A stretch of 64,000 bases of DNA, taken from assembly GCA_022703645.1 (NCBI GenBank), contig JAKLDG010000001.1:797254-861253 (forward strand), written 5' to 3'. The notes under the pieces are model-generated. The model was not told where the DNA came from. It made no database searches and saw only the letters and a list, made by a program, of their open reading frames with translations. How positions within the stretch are numbered: the stretch's first letter is position 1; every line of letters begins with the position of its first letter. A program made the position numbers and the translations under genes. The DNA is from Patescibacteria group bacterium. Lineage in GTDB: Bacteria > Patescibacteriota > JACPGU01. Positions 4,148-59,490 of the stretch are shown piece by piece.

Positions 4148-5116
4148 TTGAATTCAGTCTTTCTCATTCACGGCGAAGATGACTATCTTGCCCGTGAAAA
4201 ATTAAATTTTTTTAAACAAGGTTTCATAAAAAAATATGGTGACCTAAATATTTCTGTTTATAATAATGAAAATATTGATCTCGATGGAATTATGAATGAT
4301 GTAGTTTCAGCACCATTTCTAAGTGAAAAGAAAATGATAATTCTCGAGGGGATATTAACGGAATTAAAAAAAGATGACCGCAAAAAATTTATTGAATTAA
4401 TCAAGAAAGTTCCGGACACATCTGTTTTTTTTATTTATGAAAATAGAAATCTGGGCGATAAAAAAACTAAGAATAAGGATATCGATGAAATCATCAAAAG
4501 CTTAAGAGCAAAAAATATTTTCGAATTTAAAAAAATATCAGAATTTGATATTGCGAAATATATCCAACAAAAAATAAGGTCCAGCGAATACAAAATGGAT
4601 TCACGCGCTATTAACACACTTGCAACTCTCGTCGGACCAAACACAAGACAGATTGATAATGAAATCAAAAAACTTTTTGCATATAAATTCCAAGAAAAAG
4701 AAATTACCGCTGACGATGTGCTCAATCTAGTTAAGGCAAATGTTAACAAGGGAGTATTTGACCTGACAGATGCATTAGCAAAAAAGGATTTGAAGGAATC
4801 ACAGAAAATTATTAAACATCTTGTCGAGACAGGAGAAAATCCGATTTCCATTCTTGGCATGATCACTTTTCATTTTAGGAATCTATTGCTGGTAAAATTA
4901 GCGCAAGCACAAAAGTTGAGAGAAGGCGATGTGATTAAAGAAACCGGTATGCACCCATTTGTTTATAAAAAAACTACTTCACAATCTCGGGGTTTTGATA
5001 TGAATAAAATCAAAGAAATTTATCACAAAATATGCCAGACGGATTTTGAAATGAAAACCGGAGAAAAGGAACCGGAATTAGCAATTGATCTACTGATTGC
5101 TAAAATTTGTATGTAA
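4148..5116 (+). CDS. holA: DNA polymerase III delta subunit
   Basis: The N-terminus LIHGEDDYL... is the HolA signature, ~320 aa. The start (TTG at 4148) is uncertain. Confidence 0.75.
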   Translation: MNSVFLIHGEDDYLAREKLNFFKQGFIKKYGDLNISVYNNENIDLDGIMNDVVSAPFLSEKKMIILEGILTELKKDDRKKFIELIKKVPDTSVFFIYENRNLGDKKTKNKDIDEIIKSLRAKNIFEFKKISEFDIAKYIQQKIRSSEYKMDSRAINTLATLVGPNTRQIDNEIKKLFAYKFQEKEITADDVLNLVKANVNKGVFDLTDALAKKDLKESQKIIKHLVETGENPISILGMITFHFRNLLLVKLAQAQKLREGDVIKETGMHPFVYKKTTSQSRGFDMNKIKEIYHKICQTDFEMKTGEKEPELAIDLLIAKICM

Positions 5117-51188: not shown

Positions 51189-51270
51189 ATTTTTGATGTT
51201 TATTATTCTTTTTATTATACATTATTAGTTTAATAAAAAAACAACGAAATTAGTCGTCGTTTATTTAATT

Positions 51271-51466
51271 AATGGGCTTTAATTGAAAATGCGCGAACCT
51301 TTTTCAAATCTAAAAACTGAATTTCTGAATTGCATTTTGGGCGGAGCAATTCTGGGTGGGGGGCAGAATGCTCCGCCCAAAAACCCCGAATCCGAATTTT
51401 CCGCTCAATTTTCCGCCGCCGCTTCTTGCCGCAATTTAGGAAATTGCGGCTATTTTGAAATTTTGA
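51271..51466 (+). repeat. Inverted repeat A (left copy, ~196 bp) with GC-rich long hairpin plus terminator-like hairpin
   Basis: The reverse complement recurs at 54374..54569: ~150 nt identical apart from 1 mismatch. A 15-bp stem gggcggagcaattctg/cagaatgctccgccc has one bulge. The second hairpin ccgcaatttaggaaattgcgg is followed by a T-rich tail. Confidence 0.85.
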
Positions 51467-51473
51467 TTTTTAC

Positions 51474-52001
51474 CTATGTATTTTTTAAGACTTTCCCAAA
51501 AATATATGTATGTGTTACGGGTGGCTTTAAAAGTGTCCCCACAAATGGTTTTTTATTTAATTCTTTTATATTTAAAATTTTATAGTTATTAGCTTTATAA
51601 AATTTAATTGCCCAATCAGCCTTTTTCTGAGCTTCTAGCGCGATTGCATCTATTCCTAATCGTTTTGCTCTTTTTTCTATTTCAGAAAGTAACCCGCTTC
51701 CAACTCCTATTTTTTGATATTTTGGCAACACTTGAATCATACTTATCCAAAGAATACCATTCTCTTTAAGATAATATCTCATGGTGCCAACTATTTTATT
51801 ATTAATCGTAGCTATTAGAAATTTTCTCGTTTTTGCTGATTCTGCAAGATCTTTTTCTGATGCCTTTCCAACACAAAGCATCGTACATTCACTGGGTGTA
51901 AAAACGGACATGTATTGTTTGGCTTCTGAATTTTCTACTCTCGCAAATTCTTTATATTCAGATCCTTTTGGTTTTCTAAATTTTATTTTAATCATTTTCA
52001 T
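51474..52001 (-). CDS. GNAT-family N-acetyltransferase
   Basis: Start at MKMIKIKF (rc of 51999-52001). Acetyl-CoA motif ...LPKYQKIGVGSGLLSEIEKRAKRLGIDAIALEA. The upstream palindrome atttagccggctaaa (52091-52105) shares the half-site TTTAGCC with the PD40-gene operators. Confidence 0.7.
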   Translation of the reverse strand: MKMIKIKFRKPKGSEYKEFARVENSEAKQYMSVFTPSECTMLCVGKASEKDLAESAKTRKFLIATINNKIVGTMRYYLKENGILWISMIQVLPKYQKIGVGSGLLSEIEKRAKRLGIDAIALEAQKKADWAIKFYKANNYKILNIKELNKKPFVGTLLKPPVTHTYIFGKVLKNT

Positions 52002-52146
52002 TTTTATCCATTTTAAATATATCAGAACGACAGGAAAAAGTAAATAATTTAGGAAAATAAAAGTGATTTTTCTCTGTGGAAAAGTCATTTATTTAGCCGG
52101 CTAAACCCTAATATTGCACTCAAAATTTTGGCTTAATAAACGAATA

Positions 52147-52175
52147 TTGACTTTGCCGGCAAACTGTGCTATTAT
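52147..52175 (+). promoter_or_regulatory. Consensus sigma70 promoter TTGACT-17-TATTAT
   Basis: -35 at 52147-52152 and -10 at 52170-52175 with an exact 17-bp spacer. Confidence 0.6.
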
Positions 52176-52181
52176 GTATTT

Positions 52182-52262
52182 AGCATTCGTGAGGGCTTTG
52201 GCTCTCTCGCGGTCAAATGTTAAACTGCAGACGAGTGCTACCAGATTCTTTCTGGTTTTTTT
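52182..52262 (+). ncRNA. Candidate small RNA (~80 nt) defined by the consensus promoter and an intrinsic terminator; no protein-coding capacity
   Basis: Downstream of the TTGACT/TATTAT promoter. 7-bp closing stem gcattcg...cgagtgc (one G-U pair); terminator accagattctttctggt + TTTTTTT at 52240-52262. The 3' end abuts the stop of the convergent 52261..52755 gene. Confidence 0.4.
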
Positions 52263-52755
52263 ATTCTTCAAAATCAGTAGAGCTTAGTTTTCTTTTCTTG
52301 TTTCCGTTGGCATCAACAAACTCTATCCATGACGGGTACATGCTATAAAAGAATTTAACTCCGCCTTCAATTTCTTTTACAACCACTTTGATTCTCACTT
52401 CTTTTATAATAGCTACAAAAACATAATACCGAACCAACTTTGCTCTTTTCTCCCAGCGAGAATTTACTTTCTGACGAACTAACATATTTCTCTCGTCGTA
52501 TTCTTGTAGGGTGTGTGACTTCGTAATAATTTCAGGAACTAAATGTAATAGTCTCAATCGATTGTATTGTTCCACTTCGGATCTACCACGATTCCAAGAT
52601 TTGAAAAGCAGGTGTTCAAAACCTTCATTATTAAAATGCACAAAATCATCTAAATAAGGGCATTTAATTTTGCCAATGTTTTTGTACATTTCTTCGGCAT
52701 TTTCTCGTACCGTTTTGAACTTTTTCTCATCAAATTTTGGATTTTTGTTTTCCAT
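52261..52755 (-). CDS. Hypothetical protein (~164 aa) in IR-flanked cargo
   Basis: Start assumed at MENKNPKF (rc of 52753-52755); no motif recognised. Confidence 0.4.
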   Translation of the reverse strand: MENKNPKFDEKKFKTVRENAEEMYKNIGKIKCPYLDDFVHFNNEGFEHLLFKSWNRGRSEVEQYNRLRLLHLVPEIITKSHTLQEYDERNMLVRQKVNSRWEKRAKLVRYYVFVAIIKEVRIKVVVKEIEGGVKFFYSMYPSWIEFVDANGNKKRKLSSTDFEE

Positions 52756-52848
52756 GATTTTATTATAACATAAAAGTTGGCATGAGAATATCATTGTATT
52801 TTGCTCTGTTTTTGCATAATATGTAACTAATAAATAAACCAAAATTTT

Positions 52849-53895
52849 ATGACAGAAAAATTTGATCCAAGTAAACCAGAGTATAAGAAAGTCGAGGATT
52901 TACCAGAAGATCAACAACCACGATTTGAAAATGTTGAGGGCGGTGGTTTTGTAAATAAAGCCGCTCTTGAATTGTCCAAGGAAGATGCTCAAGAAAAAGC
53001 AACGAAAATTAATGAATGGGTAAACAGTAAAAGGAAAGGTAAATACAGTGAGCTTGATAATCCTGAATCTTCCATGGTATTTGAAAACAAGATAGAGACT
53101 TATGATATTCTTAAGCAAAGATTAGAAAAATTCGATGACATTACTGAAAGAGTTGAAAATTTAATATTGGAGGGGGGTGATTTTGATGTTTTGAGACCCG
53201 GATTTTGGAAGGATATGGTAAGAGCAGAAATGGAATTAGATCCGGCGAGAGGAGGTCTTTCTTGGAAAATAGCCATAGACATAGGCATAAGAGACTCTCA
53301 TATGTTTTTCTCTAGGATTATAGCACTTGATATATTCCATTCTTTGAAAAAAAAGGGATTACTTGACGATAATGATAAGAAACTGTTTTTAAAATCTATG
53401 CCAGTATTTGAGTTAGATAGCATATATACTAGGGGTCGTTCATTGTCACCCACAGCCCTTCTTGGCTACGAAAATGAGCTACTAGATTCTTTAGAAAAAT
53501 TATCACAGCGCGAGAATAGGGATGAAATAAATAAGGAGATTAATGAACGATCGCGCATTCATAGATCGATCTTTGACCTTCATAGATCATGTAATCGCCA
53601 TTTCTTTGAAGACTCTGGGTTCAGTGATATGGATGAATTTATTAAGGATGGAATGGGCGAAAAACAATTCAGGACCTATAATTCATTTAGATCGGGCATA
53701 GACAAGTCGCTTATAGAATATGAGGAACAAAATGAGTTTAAATATAGATCTGGACTCGCGGGCTGGGACGATTCTTATCCAAGAAACGCATTTACTCGTG
53801 GTATGGGCGATATAGATGTTTTTATTGATTTGGCAAAAGATGCTAAAAATAAAACTGAAAATGAAATAGAGCAAGATAAGAAAAAATCAAATTAG
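52849..53895 (+). CDS. Hypothetical protein (348 aa) in IR-flanked cargo
   Basis: Divergent from the 52261..52755 gene; acidic and charged; no motif recognised; hairpin terminator at ~53912-53935. Confidence 0.45.
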   Translation: MTEKFDPSKPEYKKVEDLPEDQQPRFENVEGGGFVNKAALELSKEDAQEKATKINEWVNSKRKGKYSELDNPESSMVFENKIETYDILKQRLEKFDDITERVENLILEGGDFDVLRPGFWKDMVRAEMELDPARGGLSWKIAIDIGIRDSHMFFSRIIALDIFHSLKKKGLLDDNDKKLFLKSMPVFELDSIYTRGRSLSPTALLGYENELLDSLEKLSQRENRDEINKEINERSRIHRSIFDLHRSCNRHFFEDSGFSDMDEFIKDGMGEKQFRTYNSFRSGIDKSLIEYEEQNEFKYRSGLAGWDDSYPRNAFTRGMGDIDVFIDLAKDAKNKTENEIEQDKKKSN

Positions 53896-54048
53896 CCAAT
53901 TGATAATTATAAAAGAGCGTCCAGCAGGGCGCTCTTTTCTTTCCCCTTAAATAGTCCTTCATCTCGCAGCTCCGCTGCGCCCCTCTAAATATAAAAACCT
54001 TGAATTTATATTCCTTAATAAAATTATATTTTTCTTATTATCATTTTT

Positions 54049-54255
54049 CTATTTTAATAGTTGGTCTACTTTTGTTCCGATAGCTTCAGCTAATTTCTCA
54101 ATGGTAGAAAGAGTGAGATTTCTCTTGCCATTTTCAATTCCACTAATAAAAGAACGATGAACTTTTAGTTTTCTCGCAATCGTTCCTTGTGATAATTTCT
54201 TTTTTGTTCTTATTTTTTTTAGATTTTTTCCTAATTGTGATGCTATTTTTGACAT
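54049..54255 (-). CDS. XRE-family helix-turn-helix transcriptional regulator (68 aa)
   Basis: LKKIRTKKKLSQGTIARKLKVHRSFISGIENGKRNLTLSTIEKLAEAIG is a canonical Cro/C1 HTH. Its promoter region has direct repeats ATAATGCAACA x2 (54270-54305, minus-strand reading). Confidence 0.85.
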   Translation of the reverse strand: MSKIASQLGKNLKKIRTKKKLSQGTIARKLKVHRSFISGIENGKRNLTLSTIEKLAEAIGTKVDQLLK

Positions 54256-54373
54256 ATAATTATTATCATTATAAATGTTGTTGCATTATTAGACAATGTT
54301 GCATTATAATGATACATGGATATTTGGGAGTCCTCATCATGCGCGCACGGGAGGGTGGGGCAAGCATGAAAAA

Positions 54374-54569
54374 ATCAAATTTCAAAATAGCGAGCCAATG
54401 GGATTGGCTCGCAAGAAGTGGCGGCGGAAAATTGAGCGGAAAATTCGGATTCGGGGTTTTTGGGCGGAGCATTCTGCCCCCCACCCAGAATTGCTCCGCC
54501 CAAAATGCAATTCAGAAATTCAGTTTTTAGATTTGAAAAAGGTTCGCGCATTTTCAATTAAAGCCCATT
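54374..54569 (-). repeat. Inverted repeat A' (right copy), reverse complement of 51271..51466
   Basis: ~150 nt identical to A. The terminal hairpin has a different sequence but keeps the fold (cgagccaatcccattggctcg versus ccgcaatttaggaaattgcgg). This is compensatory change conserving structure. Confidence 0.85.
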
Positions 54570-54714
54570 GAATTGGAGAGAGCGAAAAATTTGCGGGAAT
54601 TTTGACTCCTCGCTCGCCCCGAAGGCGGGCGGGGCGAGCGAGAATTGAAGCTGTAAAATCATAAGGTTCCAAGAAATTCCAAATGATGTTTTTATTTGAA
54701 ATCAGGCGGTTCGT
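54567..54714 (+). repeat. Inverted repeat B (left copy, 148 bp) abutting A', with GC-rich palindrome ctcgctcgcccc...ggggcgagcgag
   Basis: The reverse complement recurs at 56182..56328 with apparently perfect identity. It contains TGTAAAAT, an extended -10-like element oriented toward the recombinase gene. Confidence 0.85.
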
Positions 54715-54782
54715 GATAGCGGAGCTATCGTGAGCATTAGCTCACTCCAATTTTTTCCACAAGCGAAATAAATATAATCAAA

Positions 54783-56330
54783 ATGACCATGGACAAACAA
54801 AAACAACTACCACCCGATCAATGGTATCTCTACATTAGAAAAAGCACCGATGAAGAAGATCGTCAGGTTCTTTCTCTTGAAGCTCAAATGACCGAATTAA
54901 AAGAATTTGCCCAAAGGGAAAATGTAGAGATAACTGAAACATTTGTAGAAAAAAGAACCGCAAAAATACCCGGTCGCCCTGTTTTCAATGAAATGCTCTC
55001 TAAGCTGGAGAATAGCAATGGAAGAATTGGAATTTTAAGCTGGGCTCCCGACAGATTATCAAGAAATTCTGTCGATGGCGGAAAAATAATCTATCTTTTG
55101 GATATGGGTAGAATTGCCAGCTTAAAATTCCCTACCTTTGCTTTTGAAAATAATCCTTCGGGCAAATTCTTTTTGTCCATTTCTCTGTCTAACGCAAAAT
55201 ACTATGTAGATAATCTCGCGGAAAATGTAAGACGAGGCAATAGAGCAAAACTGCGTCGAGGCGAATGGCCAGGGCAAAAACCTTTTGGCTATATTTATGA
55301 CCACCGACTTAGAAACATTGTTCCCGACAAAAAGAAAGCGGAAAAAATCAAAATTATTTTTGAAGAATTTGCCACAGGCAAATACACTTACGAAACTATC
55401 TCTGATCGCATGATAGAATTTGGGATTAAAAGCAAGAGCGGGAAAAGAAAATCCAATCATGCGACAAACTATCTTTTAACTAATGCTCTCTACTGCGGAA
55501 TAATGAATTGGGATGGCGAGGCATACGAGGGAAAATACCAGCCGCTCATCTCAAAGCAATTGTTTTCAAAGGTTCAGGAAGTTCTACAAAACAAGAGCAG
55601 ACCAAGGCGAGGAGTCAGGGGCAACCACAATTTTCCTTTCTGCGGGCTTTTCAGGTGCTCTTGTGGCTCAATGTATACCGCTCAATGGGCTCGTGGCCAT
55701 GGCGGGCTTTACAGATACTACCGATGCACCAGAAAGCACGGAAAATGCTCCGAGCCGTATATCCAAGAAAAAGATCTGCAAAATAGAATCATAGAAAAGA
55801 TTAAAACAATTGCTTTGCCTGACGATTGGGCCGAGCCGATGTTAAATTACTTAGAACAAGAAAAAAAGAAAGAAGCCCAATCATCAAACGCTTTTGTCCA
55901 AGAGATCAACAAAAAACTTATTTCTACTCAAGATAAAATGGACAAACTTTTAGAACTTTATCTTGATAACATGCTTGACGAGGAAACTTACAAAATAAAA
56001 AAAGAAAGTCTCGTCAATCAAAAAATCGCCCTTAAGGACGAAAAACAAATTCTTGGGCAAAAGCGGATGAGCGGCTGGATCGAACCTACGATAGATTATA
56101 TTAAAACACTTGAGAAAGCCAAAAATATCAGCCCAGCGGTATCTCTCCCCGAGATTTCGCAATTTGTGGAAAAAATTGGAACGAACCGCCTGATTTCAAA
56201 TAAAAACATCATTTGGAATTTCTTGGAACCTTATGATTTTACAGCTTCAATTCTCGCTCGCCCCGCCCGCCTTCGGGGCGAGCGAGGAGTCAAAATTCCC
56301 GCAAATTTTTCGCTCTCTCCAATTCAATAA
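54783..56330 (+). CDS. Large serine recombinase (resolvase/invertase N-terminal catalytic domain, recombinase domain, zinc ribbon, coiled coil)
   Basis: N-terminus YLYIRKSTDEEDRQVLSLEAQ...RLSRNSVDGGKIIYLL (catalytic Ser region), Cys-rich CGLFRCSCG...YRCTRK, then coiled coil. The last 49 codons lie inside inverted repeat B'. Confidence 0.8.
   Translation: MTMDKQKQLPPDQWYLYIRKSTDEEDRQVLSLEAQMTELKEFAQRENVEITETFVEKRTAKIPGRPVFNEMLSKLENSNGRIGILSWAPDRLSRNSVDGGKIIYLLDMGRIASLKFPTFAFENNPSGKFFLSISLSNAKYYVDNLAENVRRGNRAKLRRGEWPGQKPFGYIYDHRLRNIVPDKKKAEKIKIIFEEFATGKYTYETISDRMIEFGIKSKSGKRKSNHATNYLLTNALYCGIMNWDGEAYEGKYQPLISKQLFSKVQEVLQNKSRPRRGVRGNHNFPFCGLFRCSCGSMYTAQWARGHGGLYRYYRCTRKHGKCSEPYIQEKDLQNRIIEKIKTIALPDDWAEPMLNYLEQEKKKEAQSSNAFVQEINKKLISTQDKMDKLLELYLDNMLDEETYKIKKESLVNQKIALKDEKQILGQKRMSGWIEPTIDYIKTLEKAKNISPAVSLPEISQFVEKIGTNRLISNKNIIWNFLEPYDFTASILARPARLRGERGVKIPANFSLSPIQ
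56182..56328 (-). repeat. Inverted repeat B' (right copy), reverse complement of 54567..54714; overlaps the 3' end of the large serine recombinase ORF
   Basis: A 147-bp apparently perfect match to rc(B); it encodes the recombinase C-terminal NRLISNKNIIWNFLEPYDFTASILARPARLRGERGVKIPANFSLSPIQ. Confidence 0.85.
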
Positions 56331-56550
56331 ATCCGATTGGATTGCTTACATTTACATTCCTGTGTTTGGCAGGATTGAGAAAATCAGGGTTGGTCGTATA
56401 TGGCGAACCAAAGTAGTCAACACAACACAGGAAAGATTAGATAACTATTATAAAAACTGCGAATATGTGATAACCCAATAACTACTGGGTTATTTTTAGT
56501 ATATCTGATTGCATTTTACCATACAATTAATTTTTTAGAAAGGAGTAAAA

Positions 56551-57120
56551 ATGAAAAAAGTAGCAATTTATGTTCGTTGCAGTACCGACAAGGGACAGGA
56601 TTTAGACACTCAAATACTGCCACTGAAAGAGTATGTCGCCAATCGTGGTTGGGAAGTCTACAAAATATATCAAGACTATGCTGAAAGCGGTTCAAAACAG
56701 GACAGAAAAGCCTTAAAAGAGCTAATGGATGATGCAAGACGACGCAAATTCCATGTTTGTGCCGTGGCACGCTGGGATAGATTTTCAAGGTCAACTCGGC
56801 AATTACTAGAATCATTGGAAACATTTAGAGCGGTTGGCGTAGATTTTGTCAGTCTGCATAATGCAACCGATACAACTACTCCCGAAGGAAAAATGTTTTT
56901 TACAATAATAGCTGGGTTTGCCGAATATGAAAGAGAACTGATAAGGAGTAGGGTTCTTGATGGTTTGAATAAGGCCAGAGCAAAAGGTAAAACTCTCGGC
57001 CGTCCAAAAGTTCCTATAGATATTCAAAAATTATTTCAACTAAAATCAGAAGGATTATCAATCCGAAAAATAGCAGAGGAATTGAAGGTTCCGAAATCAA
57101 CGGTGCAGAATTATATATGA
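56551..57120 (+). CDS. Small serine recombinase (Hin/Gin-like DNA invertase or resolvase) with C-terminal HTH
   Basis: 189 aa. VAIYVRCSTDKGQDLDTQ (catalytic Ser), ...VARWDRFSRS..., C-terminal LSIRKIAEELKVPKSTVQNYI HTH. Confidence 0.85.
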   Translation: MKKVAIYVRCSTDKGQDLDTQILPLKEYVANRGWEVYKIYQDYAESGSKQDRKALKELMDDARRRKFHVCAVARWDRFSRSTRQLLESLETFRAVGVDFVSLHNATDTTTPEGKMFFTIIAGFAEYERELIRSRVLDGLNKARAKGKTLGRPKVPIDIQKLFQLKSEGLSIRKIAEELKVPKSTVQNYI

Positions 57121-57150
57121 GCATAAAATGGCTTAAAATACATATTTTTC

Positions 57151-57179
57151 TTGACAATCATAGCGTTTTGTGGTATACT
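57151..57179 (+). promoter_or_regulatory. Perfect-spacing consensus sigma70 promoter TTGACA-17-TATACT
   Basis: -35 at 57151-57156 and -10 at 57174-57179. Confidence 0.65.
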
Positions 57180-57312
57180 GATTACATCAAAAATATCTTA
57201 TGAATATACCTTAACAATTCTACAAGAACTTGCTCACGAGGTGAGTCTTTATGATAAAATTTCTTTGTTAAAAATCTTGGGCGATATTTCGCCTGTATCC
57301 GAGGAGGATAAA

Positions 57313-57708
57313 ATGCCATACAAAGCAGCGACCACAGTATCAAAAAAGACAATAAGGGGTTCCGTTATCGTTGTAGCCCCGTCGGTAAGCAATATTGCAG
57401 ATAAAGTAGAAATTATTCTGGACAAGTATTACAAGAAAGCGGTTGGATGTGCCAACTATTGCTTTATTCCGCTTCAGATTCAGCAAATAAGTTTTCTGCG
57501 TGGTGGCTTTTATTGCGACATGCCTGCGTGTACGCAGTACAAGGCCGCCGTGATTTCTGCCGAGATAGACCCCTTCGTCCAAACAAACAAAAGGCACTGG
57601 AAGAAGTGGTTTGAAGAATTGATACAGGTAATCGGCGAAGAACTCGGTTGTTCGGAGCTGAAAATCACCTATACCGAGCTGGATGTGAAGGTGCTTCAAC
57701 AAGATTAA
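57313..57708 (+). CDS. Hypothetical Cys-containing small protein (131 aa) behind a strong promoter and SD
   Basis: Start moved to MPYKAATT..., preceded by gaggaggataaaATG. The track's longer ORF starts inside the promoter. No motif recognised. Confidence 0.45.
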   Translation: MPYKAATTVSKKTIRGSVIVVAPSVSNIADKVEIILDKYYKKAVGCANYCFIPLQIQQISFLRGGFYCDMPACTQYKAAVISAEIDPFVQTNKRHWKKWFEELIQVIGEELGCSELKITYTELDVKVLQQD

Positions 57709-57735
57709 AATCTCACAGAAGAGGGGTGGCTATTC

Positions 57736-57984
57736 ATGGCAATAAAATATCAGAAGTTGAGCGAGTTGAGCGAGAAGGCCAGAAAAATTCTCCTCAAAGC
57801 GAAACGGGGAGAAAAGGAGTTAGAGATAGATTATCAATCAGCAGGGCAGATAAGCAACTATCTTCATAACAAAGACTATCTGTCCGAGCAAGAGAGAGTA
57901 ATAATGGAAGAGGCTGATGAATACATGCGGAAGCAAGAAGATATACATATGCACCTCTGCGATACAGGCCAGTTTCCTTCCTGA
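57736..57984 (+). CDS. Hypothetical small protein (82 aa)
   Basis: SD-like gagggg upstream; charged helical composition. Confidence 0.35.
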   Translation: MAIKYQKLSELSEKARKILLKAKRGEKELEIDYQSAGQISNYLHNKDYLSEQERVIMEEADEYMRKQEDIHMHLCDTGQFPS

Positions 57985-58120
57985 TTTTTCAAAAACAACG
58001 CAACATGTGTTTTCGGAGGAATCCTTCAATTGGATTCCTTTTTTATTTCAAAAAATTTTAATTTTACGATAGCCTGCATCTAATAAAATAAAAAAACGGC
58101 TTAAATAACACAAAGTATTG

Positions 58121-58149
58121 TTGACAAATCTCAAAAAGTATGCTATAAT
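58121..58149 (+). promoter_or_regulatory. Perfect consensus sigma70 promoter TTGACA-17-TATAAT
   Basis: -35 at 58121-58126 and -10 at 58144-58149; downstream SD aaaggag before the 58225 ATG. Confidence 0.65.
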
Positions 58150-58224
58150 GGAAGTGTTTCTGATAATATTTTAATGAATAATATTTCGTACAATAAAAAA
58201 AAACTCAAAAAGGAGTGATAGCAA

Positions 58225-58629
58225 ATGACGAAAGTGGCTGACGATATTAATGAAATGGTTGAGACAAATTGTTGCAGATTCATAGTGCGACAGACGATGG
58301 ATGAACAAAAGGAAGACAGAGCCGTGGATACCGTAAAGGTTATACGTGCCATATACCACGAGCATATCAGACAGATTCAGCAGTCTATCCCAGACATTTC
58401 CGCAACAGCCGCCAAAGCACTGATTGAAAACCCAGATTCCGACTTTTTCTTGCCAGAAGGAGATATATGGTTTTTTGTTGAATGTTTACCAGACGATGAC
58501 CTAAAAAACCATTCTCCTGAAATACTGGCAGTAAAGATACTGGAATGGTCGGAAGAATTTATTAAAAATCACCCAAAAAAAACCAAGAAAGAAAACTGGT
58601 GGCGAAGGCTCTGCAAATTTTTCTCATAA
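58225..58629 (+). CDS. Hypothetical protein (134 aa)
   Basis: Strong promoter and SD; acidic protein, no motif recognised. Confidence 0.45.
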   Translation: MTKVADDINEMVETNCCRFIVRQTMDEQKEDRAVDTVKVIRAIYHEHIRQIQQSIPDISATAAKALIENPDSDFFLPEGDIWFFVECLPDDDLKNHSPEILAVKILEWSEEFIKNHPKKTKKENWWRRLCKFFS

Positions 58630-58734
58630 CCTTTATTCATGGACGACTCTTTTAAAAACGATATTTCATGCCGAGATATCGTTTTTTTATTGATACAAAT
58701 AGTTATGTGCTATAATAAAAAATAAAACATTATT

Positions 58735-59490
58735 ATGGATAAAAATAAAAAAGAACTTCCCATTTTTCTTCAAAATCCAAAAGTGAGAGGGATATCGAAA
58801 GAGGTTGTAGATTCTATTCCCAAAGATAAAAAAGTTTATCTAGTTGGCGGAATGGTCAGAAATGCTTTGTATTATCAGTATTTCAAGAAGATTCTGCCAT
58901 CGCGGGATTTTGATATTGCATTTGTCGGCAATAGACAGGGTTTTGTGAGCAATCTGATAAAAAAAGGATTCATATATGGAAAAACCAAGAAAAAAAATGA
59001 AATAGTATTAAAAAAATCCAAAATAAAAAAACCAAAAGCAATTCAAGATTATGTGGTTCTGGATATACATTCAGATGGAGACCAAGATATAAAAAAACAA
59101 ATAAAAGGAAAAGCGAATTTTACTATAGGCAGTTTTGCTTTAGAATTAAAGGATATTCTTTCTGAAGATTGGGCTGACAAAGTAATTACAACCCCACAAG
59201 CAGCCAAAGACTTAAAAAATAAACAAATTCGCGTTAATGCTTTGAATAAAGAACATCCTTTTCAAATCTTTTCATGCATACGATTGATGAGTTTGGGATT
59301 CAAAAAACCATCAAAGAAGGATATAGACAGGCTTCTGAAATTACTTTTTACAACAGACAATAAAGAAAGGTTTGATATAAATATCAAAAAAGTTTTTGAT
59401 TATGTAGGGGGAGAAAAGAAAGCTCGTATTTTACTAAAGAAATTAGGGATAAAAAAAGATATTTTTGATTTTAGTGTGATTCATAAATAG
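58735..59490 (+). CDS. Pol-beta-superfamily nucleotidyltransferase (CCA-adding/poly(A) polymerase head-domain-like; minimal NTase)
   Basis: YLVGGMVRNALYYQYFKKILPSRDFDIAF matches the [G][GS]x(n)DxD NTase signature (GGxVR(D/N)...DxD). It is only 251 aa with a Lys-rich tail and lacks the rest of a CCA enzyme. Confidence 0.5.
   Translation: MDKNKKELPIFLQNPKVRGISKEVVDSIPKDKKVYLVGGMVRNALYYQYFKKILPSRDFDIAFVGNRQGFVSNLIKKGFIYGKTKKKNEIVLKKSKIKKPKAIQDYVVLDIHSDGDQDIKKQIKGKANFTIGSFALELKDILSEDWADKVITTPQAAKDLKNKQIRVNALNKEHPFQIFSCIRLMSLGFKKPSKKDIDRLLKLLFTTDNKERFDINIKKVFDYVGGEKKARILLKKLGIKKDIFDFSVIHK

What the first reader, a model, noticed from the sequence alone, without database searches (positions are those of the whole stretch)
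51271..57120. Two adjacent pairs of long, perfect inverted repeats (196 bp and 148 bp) with two serine recombinases: candidate double DNA-inversion switch or novel mobile module
Seen directly in the sequence: IR-A (51271-51466) and its reverse complement A' (54374-54569) flank a 2.9-kb cargo (GNAT, candidate sRNA, two unknown proteins, XRE regulator). A' abuts IR-B (54567-54714), whose reverse complement B' (56182-56328) lies 1.47 kb away. The B/B' pair encloses a 515-aa large serine recombinase, and a 189-aa Hin/Gin-type invertase follows at 56551. Long perfect inverted repeats next to serine invertases are the hallmark of site-specific invertible segments (Hin/hix, Gin/gix, shufflons), which is established knowledge. 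Two such units sharing a junction, and the A-versus-B repeat architecture, do not correspond to any classical arrangement I know. In an AT-rich genome, ~150-bp perfect identity also implies recent duplication or active homogenisation by recombination.
Basis: partly seen in the sequence, partly recalled or inferred. Interest (0 to 1): 0.85.

Follow-up and report, generated by a model that had tools for sequence, protein, structure and literature searches.

The report
Mirror-armed serine-integrase island of Patescibacteria
The two inverted-repeat pairs are the duplicated attachment-site arms of a 5-kb mobile island driven by its large serine recombinase, one copy of a widespread family in ultra-small bacteria that normally inserts behind tRNA genes; I found no description of this family in the literature I could search.

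Summary
Both repeat pairs are real. IR-B is a perfect 148-nt pair. IR-A is 159 nt with one mismatch, then a different hairpin in each arm, then a shared tail.

They are not hix/gix-type switch sites for the 189-aa invertase, which has no homologue in 80 related loci. Window 51271-56328 is one copy of a family built as [A-cargo-A'][B-LSR-B'].
- 73 of 80 genome loci with an LSR homologue (41-67% identity) have the B-type pair.
- At least 20 loci also have an A-type pair abutting it.
- In 53 loci B' ends on the 3' end of a tRNA gene, and many different tRNAs are used.
- Cargo varies and is largely defence genes. An XRE regulator gene next to A' recurs in at least 11 loci.

The internal A'|B junction reads as a complete inverted attP; the outer ends read as attL and attR. 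A CGAAC motif lies 5 nt further out on the A side than on the tRNA side, as in attP versus attB half-sites.

Arms evolve in concert. Near-identical relatives carry the LSR module in both orientations, and one inversion maps inside the arms.

So this is a mobile module. Inversion occurs in relatives but is not shown for this copy. Why the att region is mirrored is unexplained.

The parts
51239..51262 (-). Terminator-like hairpin in the left host flank (L), immediately outside the element.
   Evidence: Its position fits a terminator left behind by insertion between a minus-strand gene and its terminator (inference).
51271..51471 (+). IR-A, arm 'a' at the attL-type end. It holds the core AAT (51271-51273), the conserved P'-type motif AATTGAAAATGCGCGAACC (51281-51299), a GC hairpin (about 51339-51378) and terminator-like hairpin type 1 (51428-51450) followed by a T-run facing the cargo.
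   Evidence: One search shows compensatory changes in both hairpins.
51472..54368 (.). Cargo module. It holds a GNAT (51474-52088, -), a weak LPD3 match (52261-52842, -), an unknown 348-aa ORF (52849-53895, +), an XRE regulator (54049-54255, -) and the XRE promoter with a direct-repeat operator-like sequence (about 54256-54310).
   Evidence: Cargo differs in every related element, while the XRE next to A' recurs.
54369..54569 (-). IR-A', the internal inverted copy of arm 'a'. It carries terminator-like hairpin type 2 (54390-54412).
54567..54714 (-). IR-B, the internal inverted copy of arm 'b' (the LSR 3' end). Together with A' it forms a complete inverted attP-like site whose core ATT lies at 54567-54569. 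It contains a 13-bp GC hairpin (54609-54642).
54715..54782 (+). LSR upstream region. It holds two small hairpins (GATAGC..GCTATC, and GTGAGC..GCTCAC followed by a T-run) and a TATAAT 5 nt before the ATG.
   Evidence: A GC hairpin lies just inside the left arm in most relatives.
54783..56330 (+). Large serine recombinase gene (515 aa), the integrase of the element. The stop codon straddles the right junction.
56181..56328 (+). IR-B', arm 'b' at the attR-type end, equal to the last 148 nt of the LSR ORF. Its inner end is ACGAACCGCC. It contains a GC hairpin (56253-56286), and the core AAT lies at 56326-56328.
56329..56550 (.). Right flank R. Relatives have the 3' end of a tRNA gene here. In this window it is neither a tRNA nor an 'a' arm.

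Best explanation
Window 51271-56328 (5,058 bp) is an integrated copy of a small two-module mobile island, [a-cargo-a*][b*-LSR-b], mobilised by its own large serine recombinase (LSR).

Shown:
- The architecture, with both repeat pairs and their shared junction, recurs in relatives whose LSR is 41-79% identical.
- In relatives the outer end of the right arm b overlaps the last 4-6 nt of a tRNA gene on the opposite strand. Many different tRNAs are used.
- The left arm is always followed by a conserved 'a' sequence carrying a CGAAC(C) motif. That motif sits 5 nt further from the junction than the equivalent T-arm motif of the tRNA.
- L|a, b|a and b|R share a 3-8 nt core (AAT in this window).
- Cargo is variable.
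- Arms are 96-100% identical within an element but 79-84% identical between related elements.
- Near-identical elements differ by inversion of the LSR module, and one such crossover lies inside the arms.

Inferred:
- b|a is the element's attP. The outer junctions are attL (L|a) and attR (b|R).
- The LSR integrates the element by conservative recombination between attP and an attB formed by the acceptor/T-arm end of a tRNA gene plus its downstream flank.
- The element carries a second, inverted attP just upstream of the LSR gene. An excised circle would therefore be two unique segments separated by two inverted roughly 350-bp repeats, as in the yeast 2-micron plasmid.
- The long identical arms recombine with each other, most likely through the host's homologous recombination. 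This keeps them identical and occasionally flips the LSR module, so that the LSR reads either outward into the tRNA or inward into 'a' with its terminators.
- In this window the copy sits at a non-tRNA secondary site.
- The neighbouring 189-aa invertase is not part of the system.

The selective reason for the mirrored attP is not established.
For: Family architecture:
- 73 of 80 loci have an inverted repeat of 33-307 nt (median 127 nt) bracketing the LSR gene. Among the 71 arm pairs of at least 70 nt, median identity is 99.2% and 33 are perfect.
- A second pair abuts the left arm in at least 20 loci, with the same 3-nt overlap in L013 as in the window.
- A tRNA or tmRNA sits at the right arm in 53 of 80 loci and never at the left arm.

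Attachment-site reading:
- Junction table. The CGAAC motif starts at +19/20 on the 'a' side (43 of 55 loci) and at +14/15 on the tRNA side (35 of 53).
- This matches the published rule that the DBD2 motif lies 5 bp closer to the centre in attB than in attP (PMC11722253).
- Cores are shared by attL, attP and attR.

Mobility:
- LSRs at least 90% identical abut several different tRNAs.
- Tandem elements occur in L058.
- Cargo includes R-M systems, Fic, AbiE and others.

Recombinase:
- LSR domains and the invariant RKST serine are present. The match to the A118 integrase DNA-binding domains has E = 1.6e-8.

Concerted evolution and inversion:
- Arm comparison within and between elements.
- L114 and L115 have the same cargo at 99.85% and the same LSR at 98%, with the LSR module inverted. 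The outer arm halves stayed with their flanks.
- L106 and L097 show LSR(end)-b-a-XRE.
- About 18 of 120 homologues have tails translated from 'a', as do 4 of 15 members of one 90% cluster.

The invertase has no homologue in 80 loci.
Against: - In this window the right flank is not a tRNA and lacks the T-arm-like motif. The attB reading therefore does not hold for this copy's own right junction.
- No empty site, excised circle or read-level heterogeneity was seen for this element.
- If an excised circle really had two equivalent attP sites, both integration orientations should be about equally common. Yet 53 MAG loci show the LSR facing the tRNA and none shows the mirror form.
- No recombination directionality factor was identified.
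- Some contigs showing the flipped form have arms longer than the assembler's k-mer and could be mis-joined. Only L111, L114 and L115 escape this, because their arms are short or have diverged.
- The function of the GC hairpins and of the conserved inner arm boundary (...GGA|ACGAACCGCC) is unexplained.
Confidence: 0.6

Rival explanations
1. The excised form is a 2-micron-like circle, and the internal site is a second working attP. The two orientations of the LSR module seen in relatives would then arise mainly by excision and re-integration through the other attP, or by LSR-catalysed recombination between att-type junctions as with the promiscuous Ccr recombinases. They would not arise by host homologous recombination.
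For: - The internal a*|b* junction is a complete, uninterrupted copy of the inferred attP.
- L112, L057 and L114 show the LSR module flanked on both sides by b+a arms of 273-307 nt, as expected for circles, multimers or arrays.
- L113 reads LSR-b-a-cargo-XRE-a*, the order expected across a circle or tandem junction.
- The best NCBIfam match is CcrB, far below its cutoff.
Against: - The mapped L114/L115 event left the outer arm halves with their flanks, so its crossover was not at the att core.
- It also changed only the LSR module, not the cargo orientation.
- Mirror-image integrants are absent from 53 MAG loci.
- No replication function is conserved in the cargo.
- Canonical LSRs do not recombine attP with attP (general knowledge).
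Confidence: 0.2
2. The internal mirrored att copy is not a recombination substrate. It is a regulatory or decoy binding site: LSR bound just upstream of its own promoter would autoregulate or be titrated. The extended identity and the occasional flips would then be by-products of gene conversion between nearby inverted repeats.
For: - The site lies 68-230 nt upstream of the LSR start in all loci. Hairpins or terminators insulate it on both sides, and it sits next to a divergent XRE regulator.
- The orientation of both modules is constant in MAG loci.
- The mapped crossover lies inside the arms.
Against: - A binding site needs about 50 bp, yet 350 bp are kept, including terminators and the coding 3' end.
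- This does not explain why arm 'a' is also repeated at the far end of the cargo, other than as the attL half.
Confidence: 0.12
3. This is a classical phase-variation switch. The 189-aa Hin/Gin-type invertase would flip one or both segments at the long inverted repeats to change gene expression.
For: - A small serine recombinase with a C-terminal HTH lies 220 nt to the right of B'.
- The LSR-bearing segment does invert in relatives.
Against: - tblastn finds no homologue of the invertase in the 80 genome loci, 73 of which carry the same repeat architecture, and none was annotated in the other related loci inspected.
- The invertase lies outside both repeat pairs.
- The arms are 148-201 nt copies of an att region, not 26-bp hix-type sites.
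- The cargo orientation is invariant.
Confidence: 0.03
4. The repeats are an assembly artefact, or members of a dispersed MITE/REP-like family unrelated to recombination.
For: - Contigs of many assemblies end exactly at these arms.
- The JGI contig's ends overlap within IR-A.
Against: - The same architecture appears in more than 70 independent assemblies made with different assemblers, including a closed chromosome (CP060229, L074).
- No extra copies occur in the window.
- In related loci with enough flanking sequence to judge, the arms lie next to an LSR gene; several short metagenome contigs hold an 'a' arm alone.
Confidence: 0.02

Closest known systems
Serine-integrase (LSR) integrative elements and prophages (A118/LI, Bxb1, phiC31, SPbeta type)
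   Same: - The three-domain LSR.
- A short shared core at attL, attR and attP.
- P-type versus B-type half-sites offset by 5 bp.
- The integrase gene sits at the edge of the element.
   Different: - The target is the 3' end of many different tRNA genes rather than one gene.
- attP overlaps the end of the LSR ORF.
- A complete inverted copy of attP with about 350 bp of flanks sits upstream of the LSR gene, so both modules are bracketed by long inverted repeats.
- No RDF was recognised.
- The elements are only 3-11 kb, with no phage or conjugation genes.
Yeast 2-micron plasmid (FLP/FRT inside 599-bp inverted repeats)
   Same: Two unique segments are separated by two long identical inverted repeats that contain the recombinase's site, and the recombinase gene lies in one unique segment. 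Both isomers exist. For this element the circular form is inferred.
   Different: - The recombinase is a serine, not a tyrosine, recombinase.
- The element is found integrated in a chromosome.
- No replication or partition genes are present.
- The mapped inversion is not at the site-specific core.
SCCmec (CcrAB) and Dehalococcoides ssrA genomic islands (DsiB + DsiA; PMC3146451)
   Same: These are small LSR-mobilised islands inserted at the 3' end of a conserved gene (rlmH; tmRNA) and carrying accessory cargo. CcrB is the best-scoring NCBIfam model.
   Different: - The score is far below the family cutoff (92 versus 900 bits).
- Those islands use a pair of recombinases encoded inside the island. 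Here the small recombinase is outside and not conserved.
- That paper does not mention inverted repeats.
Hin/Gin/Cin/Pin invertible segments and shufflons
   Same: Inverted repeats bracket a segment that can invert, and a serine recombinase is nearby.
   Different: - Those systems use short sites, an enhancer plus Fis, and a small invertase, and the inversion switches expression of other genes.
- Here the repeats are att-region duplicates and the inverted segment is the integrase gene itself.
- The small invertase is unrelated.
Integration-dependent gene-end switching (mycobacteriophages BPs/Brujita; SSV-type integrase partition). This comparison rests on my own knowledge.
   Same: attP lies within the 3' end of an element gene, so the C-terminal residues of the protein differ between the integrated and excised forms.
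   Different: Those systems use tyrosine integrases and have no mirrored att copy.

Membership tests
LSR (serine-integrase) integrative element | Recombinase with Resolvase catalytic domain + Recombinase domain + zinc ribbon, with the catalytic serine present | tested here: met
   One search finds all three Pfam domains. One search shows that R19-K20-S21-T22 are invariant in 28 homologues. One search matches the A118 integrase DNA-binding domains.
LSR (serine-integrase) integrative element | attL, attR and attP share a short core at which the flanks are exchanged | tested here: met
   In the window L|a, b|a and b|R share AAT. L084 shares AATGC and L013 shares TCG.
LSR (serine-integrase) integrative element | P-type and B-type half-sites carry the same outer motif, offset by about 5 bp | tested here: met
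   At family level, CGAAC starts at +19/20 on the 'a' side and at +14/15 on the tRNA side. The rule is quoted from PMC11722253. The window's own right flank lacks the motif.
LSR (serine-integrase) integrative element | A precise empty site (attB) in related genomes, or an excised circle | not testable with these tools
   The source sample's contig is not in the searchable metagenome collection, and no reads are available.
LSR (serine-integrase) integrative element | A recombination directionality factor | not tested
   The only conserved small gene is the XRE HTH.
Hin/Gin-type invertible segment | A small invertase that co-occurs with the repeats and acts on short hix/gix-like sites | tested here: not met
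   tblastn with the 189-aa protein gives no hit in 80 related loci. The arms are 148-201 nt att-region copies.
Hin/Gin-type invertible segment | Both orientations present in one population | not testable with these tools
   Two assemblies of this genome agree on one orientation. Relatives show both orientations of the LSR module.
MITE/REP-like dispersed repeat or IS with terminal inverted repeats | Many dispersed copies, target-site duplication, and ends recognised by a transposase | tested here: not met
   There are no other copies in 64 kb. In related loci with enough flanking sequence the arms lie next to an LSR gene. There is no direct-repeat duplication beyond the att core. A genome-wide count was not possible.
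SCC/Ccr-type or DsiAB-type island | Membership of the CcrA/B/C families, with a recombinase pair inside the island | tested here: not met
   CcrB scores 92 bits against a cutoff of 900. The small recombinase lies outside the repeats and is not conserved.
2-micron-type plasmid | A circular replicon with two long inverted repeats holding the recombinase target, with site-specific flipping and replication functions | tested here: inconclusive
   The repeat architecture fits if the element excises. However, no circle was shown, no rep genes are present, and the mapped flip is not at the core.

The most novel reading that the evidence does not exclude
This is an undescribed class of two-module serine-recombinase element. 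It recognises the universal acceptor/T-arm end of essentially any tRNA gene. It carries a mirrored second attP, so its excised form is a two-fold symmetric, 2-micron-like circle. Flipping of the integrase module between the mirrored arms is part of its life cycle, for example as an RDF-free control of integrase expression or directionality: convergent with the tRNA in one state and co-directional in the other.
Probability: 0.3. Interest if true: 0.85.

Novelty: new variant of a known kind. Interest (0 to 1): 0.7.

Why it matters
- Abundance. The family is large. 581 stretches in one-genome-per-species bacterial and archaeal genomes encode a relative, and 2,655 protein clusters have E <= 1e-10. 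It appears to be a main vehicle for defence and accessory genes in Patescibacteria, whose means of gene exchange are poorly known.
- Recombinase biology. Its integrases read a motif common to many tRNA genes. This is of interest for recombinase biology and for genome engineering.
- Architecture. The mirrored att arrangement has no described counterpart among serine-recombinase elements in the literature I could search. It raises a testable question about how directionality and integrase expression are controlled.
- Assembly. These arms are a systematic cause of contig breaks, and possibly of mis-oriented segments, in assemblies of these genomes.

Tried and rejected
- **A as an RNA gene.** Rfam at gathering and at E <= 5, and ARAGORN over the window, found no known RNA family or tRNA in A, B or the right flank. 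I considered A as a tRNA-like gene ending in CCA. Its conserved start is better read as an att half-site, so I dropped this.
- **Intron-split tRNA in the right flank.** Such genes exist in Patescibacteria (PMC13011429, listed). No T-arm motif and no intron hit were found.
- **Long-range RNA pairing of B with B' in the LSR mRNA.** Terminator-like hairpins lie between B and the LSR promoter, so this is unlikely.
- **Folded single-stranded DNA forming a duplex attP, as in CTX phage.** A serine recombinase acting on such a fold would linearise the chromosome. Rejected as unparsimonious, and not tested.
- **Phage association.** Only 2 of 7 viral-contig hits exceed 30% identity.
- **Genome-wide copy count of A in the source genome.** This failed because that contig is not in the searchable collection.
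- **Constant LSR orientation.** I first concluded from 53 MAG loci that the LSR module never flips. I had to revise this after examining protein tails and metagenome contigs.
- **Literature.** Six searches found no description of this architecture.

Full report
**Observation**

Both inverted-repeat pairs exist.
- IR-B (54567-54714 and 56181-56328) is 148 nt and perfect.
- IR-A is about 201 nt per arm, not a perfect 196-bp repeat. It has 159 nt with one mismatch, then a hairpin that differs between the arms, then a shared T-rich tail.
- A' and B overlap by 3 nt (ATT, 54567-54569).
- B' is the last 148 nt of the 515-aa recombinase ORF (54783-56330). B is its inverted copy 68 nt upstream of the start codon.
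- The ORF has the three domains of a large serine recombinase (LSR). The 189-aa neighbour is a small resolvase/invertase.
- Neither arm recurs elsewhere in the 64 kb. Rfam and ARAGORN find nothing in the region.

**Source**

The window is 100% identical to an 866,256-bp JGI contig whose two ends overlap inside IR-A, and to an NCBI MAG contig. Both show the same orientation. LSR homologues come overwhelmingly from Patescibacteria.

**The arrangement is a family trait**

I fetched 80 loci that encode LSR homologues (41-67% identity) from one-genome-per-species collections.
- 73 of the 80 have an inverted repeat of 33-307 nt (median 127 nt) around the LSR gene. The right arm is always the 3' end of the ORF. 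Among the 71 arm pairs of at least 70 nt, median identity is 99.2% and 33 are perfect.
- In 53 loci the outer end of the right arm overlaps by 4-6 nt the 3' end of a tRNA gene on the other strand (a tmRNA gene in one case). More than a dozen tRNA identities are used. No locus has a tRNA at the left arm.
- At least 20 loci also have a second pair abutting the left arm, enclosing 1.1-8.9 kb. L013, whose LSR is 46% identical, has the same 3-nt overlap as the window.
- The enclosed genes differ from element to element: restriction-modification systems, Fic, AbiE, LexA-like proteins, radical SAM enzymes and others.
- An XRE regulator gene next to A' and divergent from the LSR recurs in at least 11 loci.
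- The 189-aa invertase and the ORFs to its right have no homologue in any of the 80 loci.

**What the arms are**

I aligned the junctions of all loci. The right arm runs into the antisense tRNA (acceptor, then GGAxTCGAACC). The left arm, read in the same sense, runs into a conserved sequence, nnnnTTnCTnAACnnnGCnCGAACCTnTTTT. The start of the window's A (GGGCTTTAATTGAAAATGCGCGAACCTTTT) is this sequence.

The CGAAC motif starts at +19/20 on the A side in 43 of 55 loci and at +14/15 on the tRNA side in 35 of 53. For serine integrases, the motif bound by the second DNA-binding domain lies 5 bp closer to the centre in attB than in attP (PMC11722253).

L|a, b|a and b|R share a short core: AAT in the window, AATGC in L084 and TCG in L013.

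I therefore read b|a as the element's attP, the outer junctions as attL and attR, and the internal A'|B junction as a complete attP in inverted orientation. This assignment is inference.

The rest of arm A holds two hairpins with compensatory changes across relatives, the second followed by a T-run facing the cargo. A and A' carry two different, individually covarying terminal hairpins inside identical flanks. The same assignment holds in W, L084 and L013. Arm B carries a GC hairpin about 40 nt from its outer end in 33 of 57 loci, with unrelated stem sequences.

**Signs of mobility**

- LSRs at least 90% identical abut several different tRNAs.
- L058 holds two elements in tandem.
- Closely related backbones (W, L084, L085) carry different cargo.
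- Arms are 96-100% identical within an element but 79-84% identical between W, L085 and L084. This is concerted evolution.

**Does anything invert?**

In MAG loci both modules have a constant orientation. The wider protein collection gives a different picture.
- About 18 of the 120 listed homologues end in a peptide (..LxxARTxFxxN) that is the translation of the A-side motif. In those genes the LSR reads from b into 'a' rather than into a tRNA.
- One 90% cluster has 4 such members out of 15.
- Contigs L106 and L097 read LSR(end)-b-a-XRE.
- L112, L057 and L114 have b+a arms on both sides of the LSR module.

The cleanest case is L114 versus L115.
- The cargo is 99.85% identical and the LSR 98% identical, but the LSR module is inverted.
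- Their two arms differ at about 10% of positions, so the assemblies are trustworthy and the crossover can be placed.
- The outer arm halves stayed with their flanks. The exchange therefore lies in the inner 55-70 nt, not at the att core.

This points to homologous recombination between the arms, which would also explain their concerted evolution. I found no evidence that the cargo module inverts.

**This copy**

The window's element has the standard order and an intact LSR, but its right flank is neither a tRNA nor an 'a' arm and lacks the T-arm-like motif. I take it to be an insertion at a secondary site or a later rearrangement. A terminator-like hairpin just left of A fits insertion between a gene and its terminator.

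**Comparison with known systems**

- The unit works like a serine-integrase island. It meets the tests I could run: domains, shared core and half-site offset.
- It is not a Hin/Gin switch, a shufflon, a MITE, or a Ccr/Dsi-type island.
- What has no counterpart in the literature I could search is the mirrored copy of the whole att region. That copy would give an excised circle the layout of the 2-micron plasmid.
- Why it is kept is open. It could be a second working attP, an operator or decoy, or a substrate for flipping the integrase gene relative to the convergent tRNA gene.
- An equal use of two attPs is hard to reconcile with the one-sided orientation in MAG loci.

**Verdict**

The 'mobile module' reading is right. 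The 'inversion' reading is right for the LSR segment in relatives but probably not through a dedicated invertase. The Hin/Gin analogy is wrong.

Noticed in passing
window 51271-51420; L001 and L003: The 866,256-bp JGI contig that matches the window starts and ends inside IR-A with about 150 nt of overlap. It is probably a closed circular genome of about 866 kb that the assembler cut at this repeat.
   Followed up: partly
window 56551-59490: The small serine recombinase (189 aa) is followed by four ORFs: three with no family match and one with a weak nucleotidyltransferase match. None has a homologue in 80 related loci. This may be a separate accessory or mobile region abutting the island.
   Followed up: partly
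window 54256-54310: The sequence ATGTTGCATTAT is directly repeated over the predicted XRE promoter (TTGTCT-17-TATAAT, minus strand). It is a likely operator for autoregulation.
   Followed up: no
window 56180-56190 and the equivalent position in about half of the related loci: The inner end of the B arms falls exactly at ...AAAATTGGA|ACGAACCGCC, the LSR codons G-T-N-R, with synonymous positions fixed. A small GC hairpin with a TTCG-type loop sits just inside the left arm. This may be a second protein-binding site.
   Followed up: partly
L042 1832-1905: An element abuts a tRNA that ARAGORN calls with anticodon TTA ('tRNA-Stop'). It is a possible suppressor or a sign of an alternative genetic code in that lineage.
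   Followed up: no
L114 1-4943: Two LSR genes 83% identical at the DNA level diverge from a single cargo cassette (LSR2 <- b a cargo a* b* -> LSR). Such arrays cannot arise by simple tandem integration.
   Followed up: partly
80 genome loci and the short contigs: A large share of contigs carrying these LSR genes begin or end exactly at an arm, and many are 1.6-2.5 kb 'arm-LSR-arm' contigs. The family is a systematic source of assembly breaks in Patescibacteria MAGs.
   Followed up: yes
L084 6322-6471 versus 4712-4861: Within one element, the right arm's GC hairpin carries a compensatory double change (GCCCCG..CGGGGC to GCTCCG..CGGAGC) relative to the left arm. This suggests the hairpin structure itself is under selection.
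   Followed up: no
L086 2563-6498: A GyrA gene interrupted by an intein (Intein_splicing + LAGLIDADG) lies next to a decayed LSR copy.
   Followed up: no
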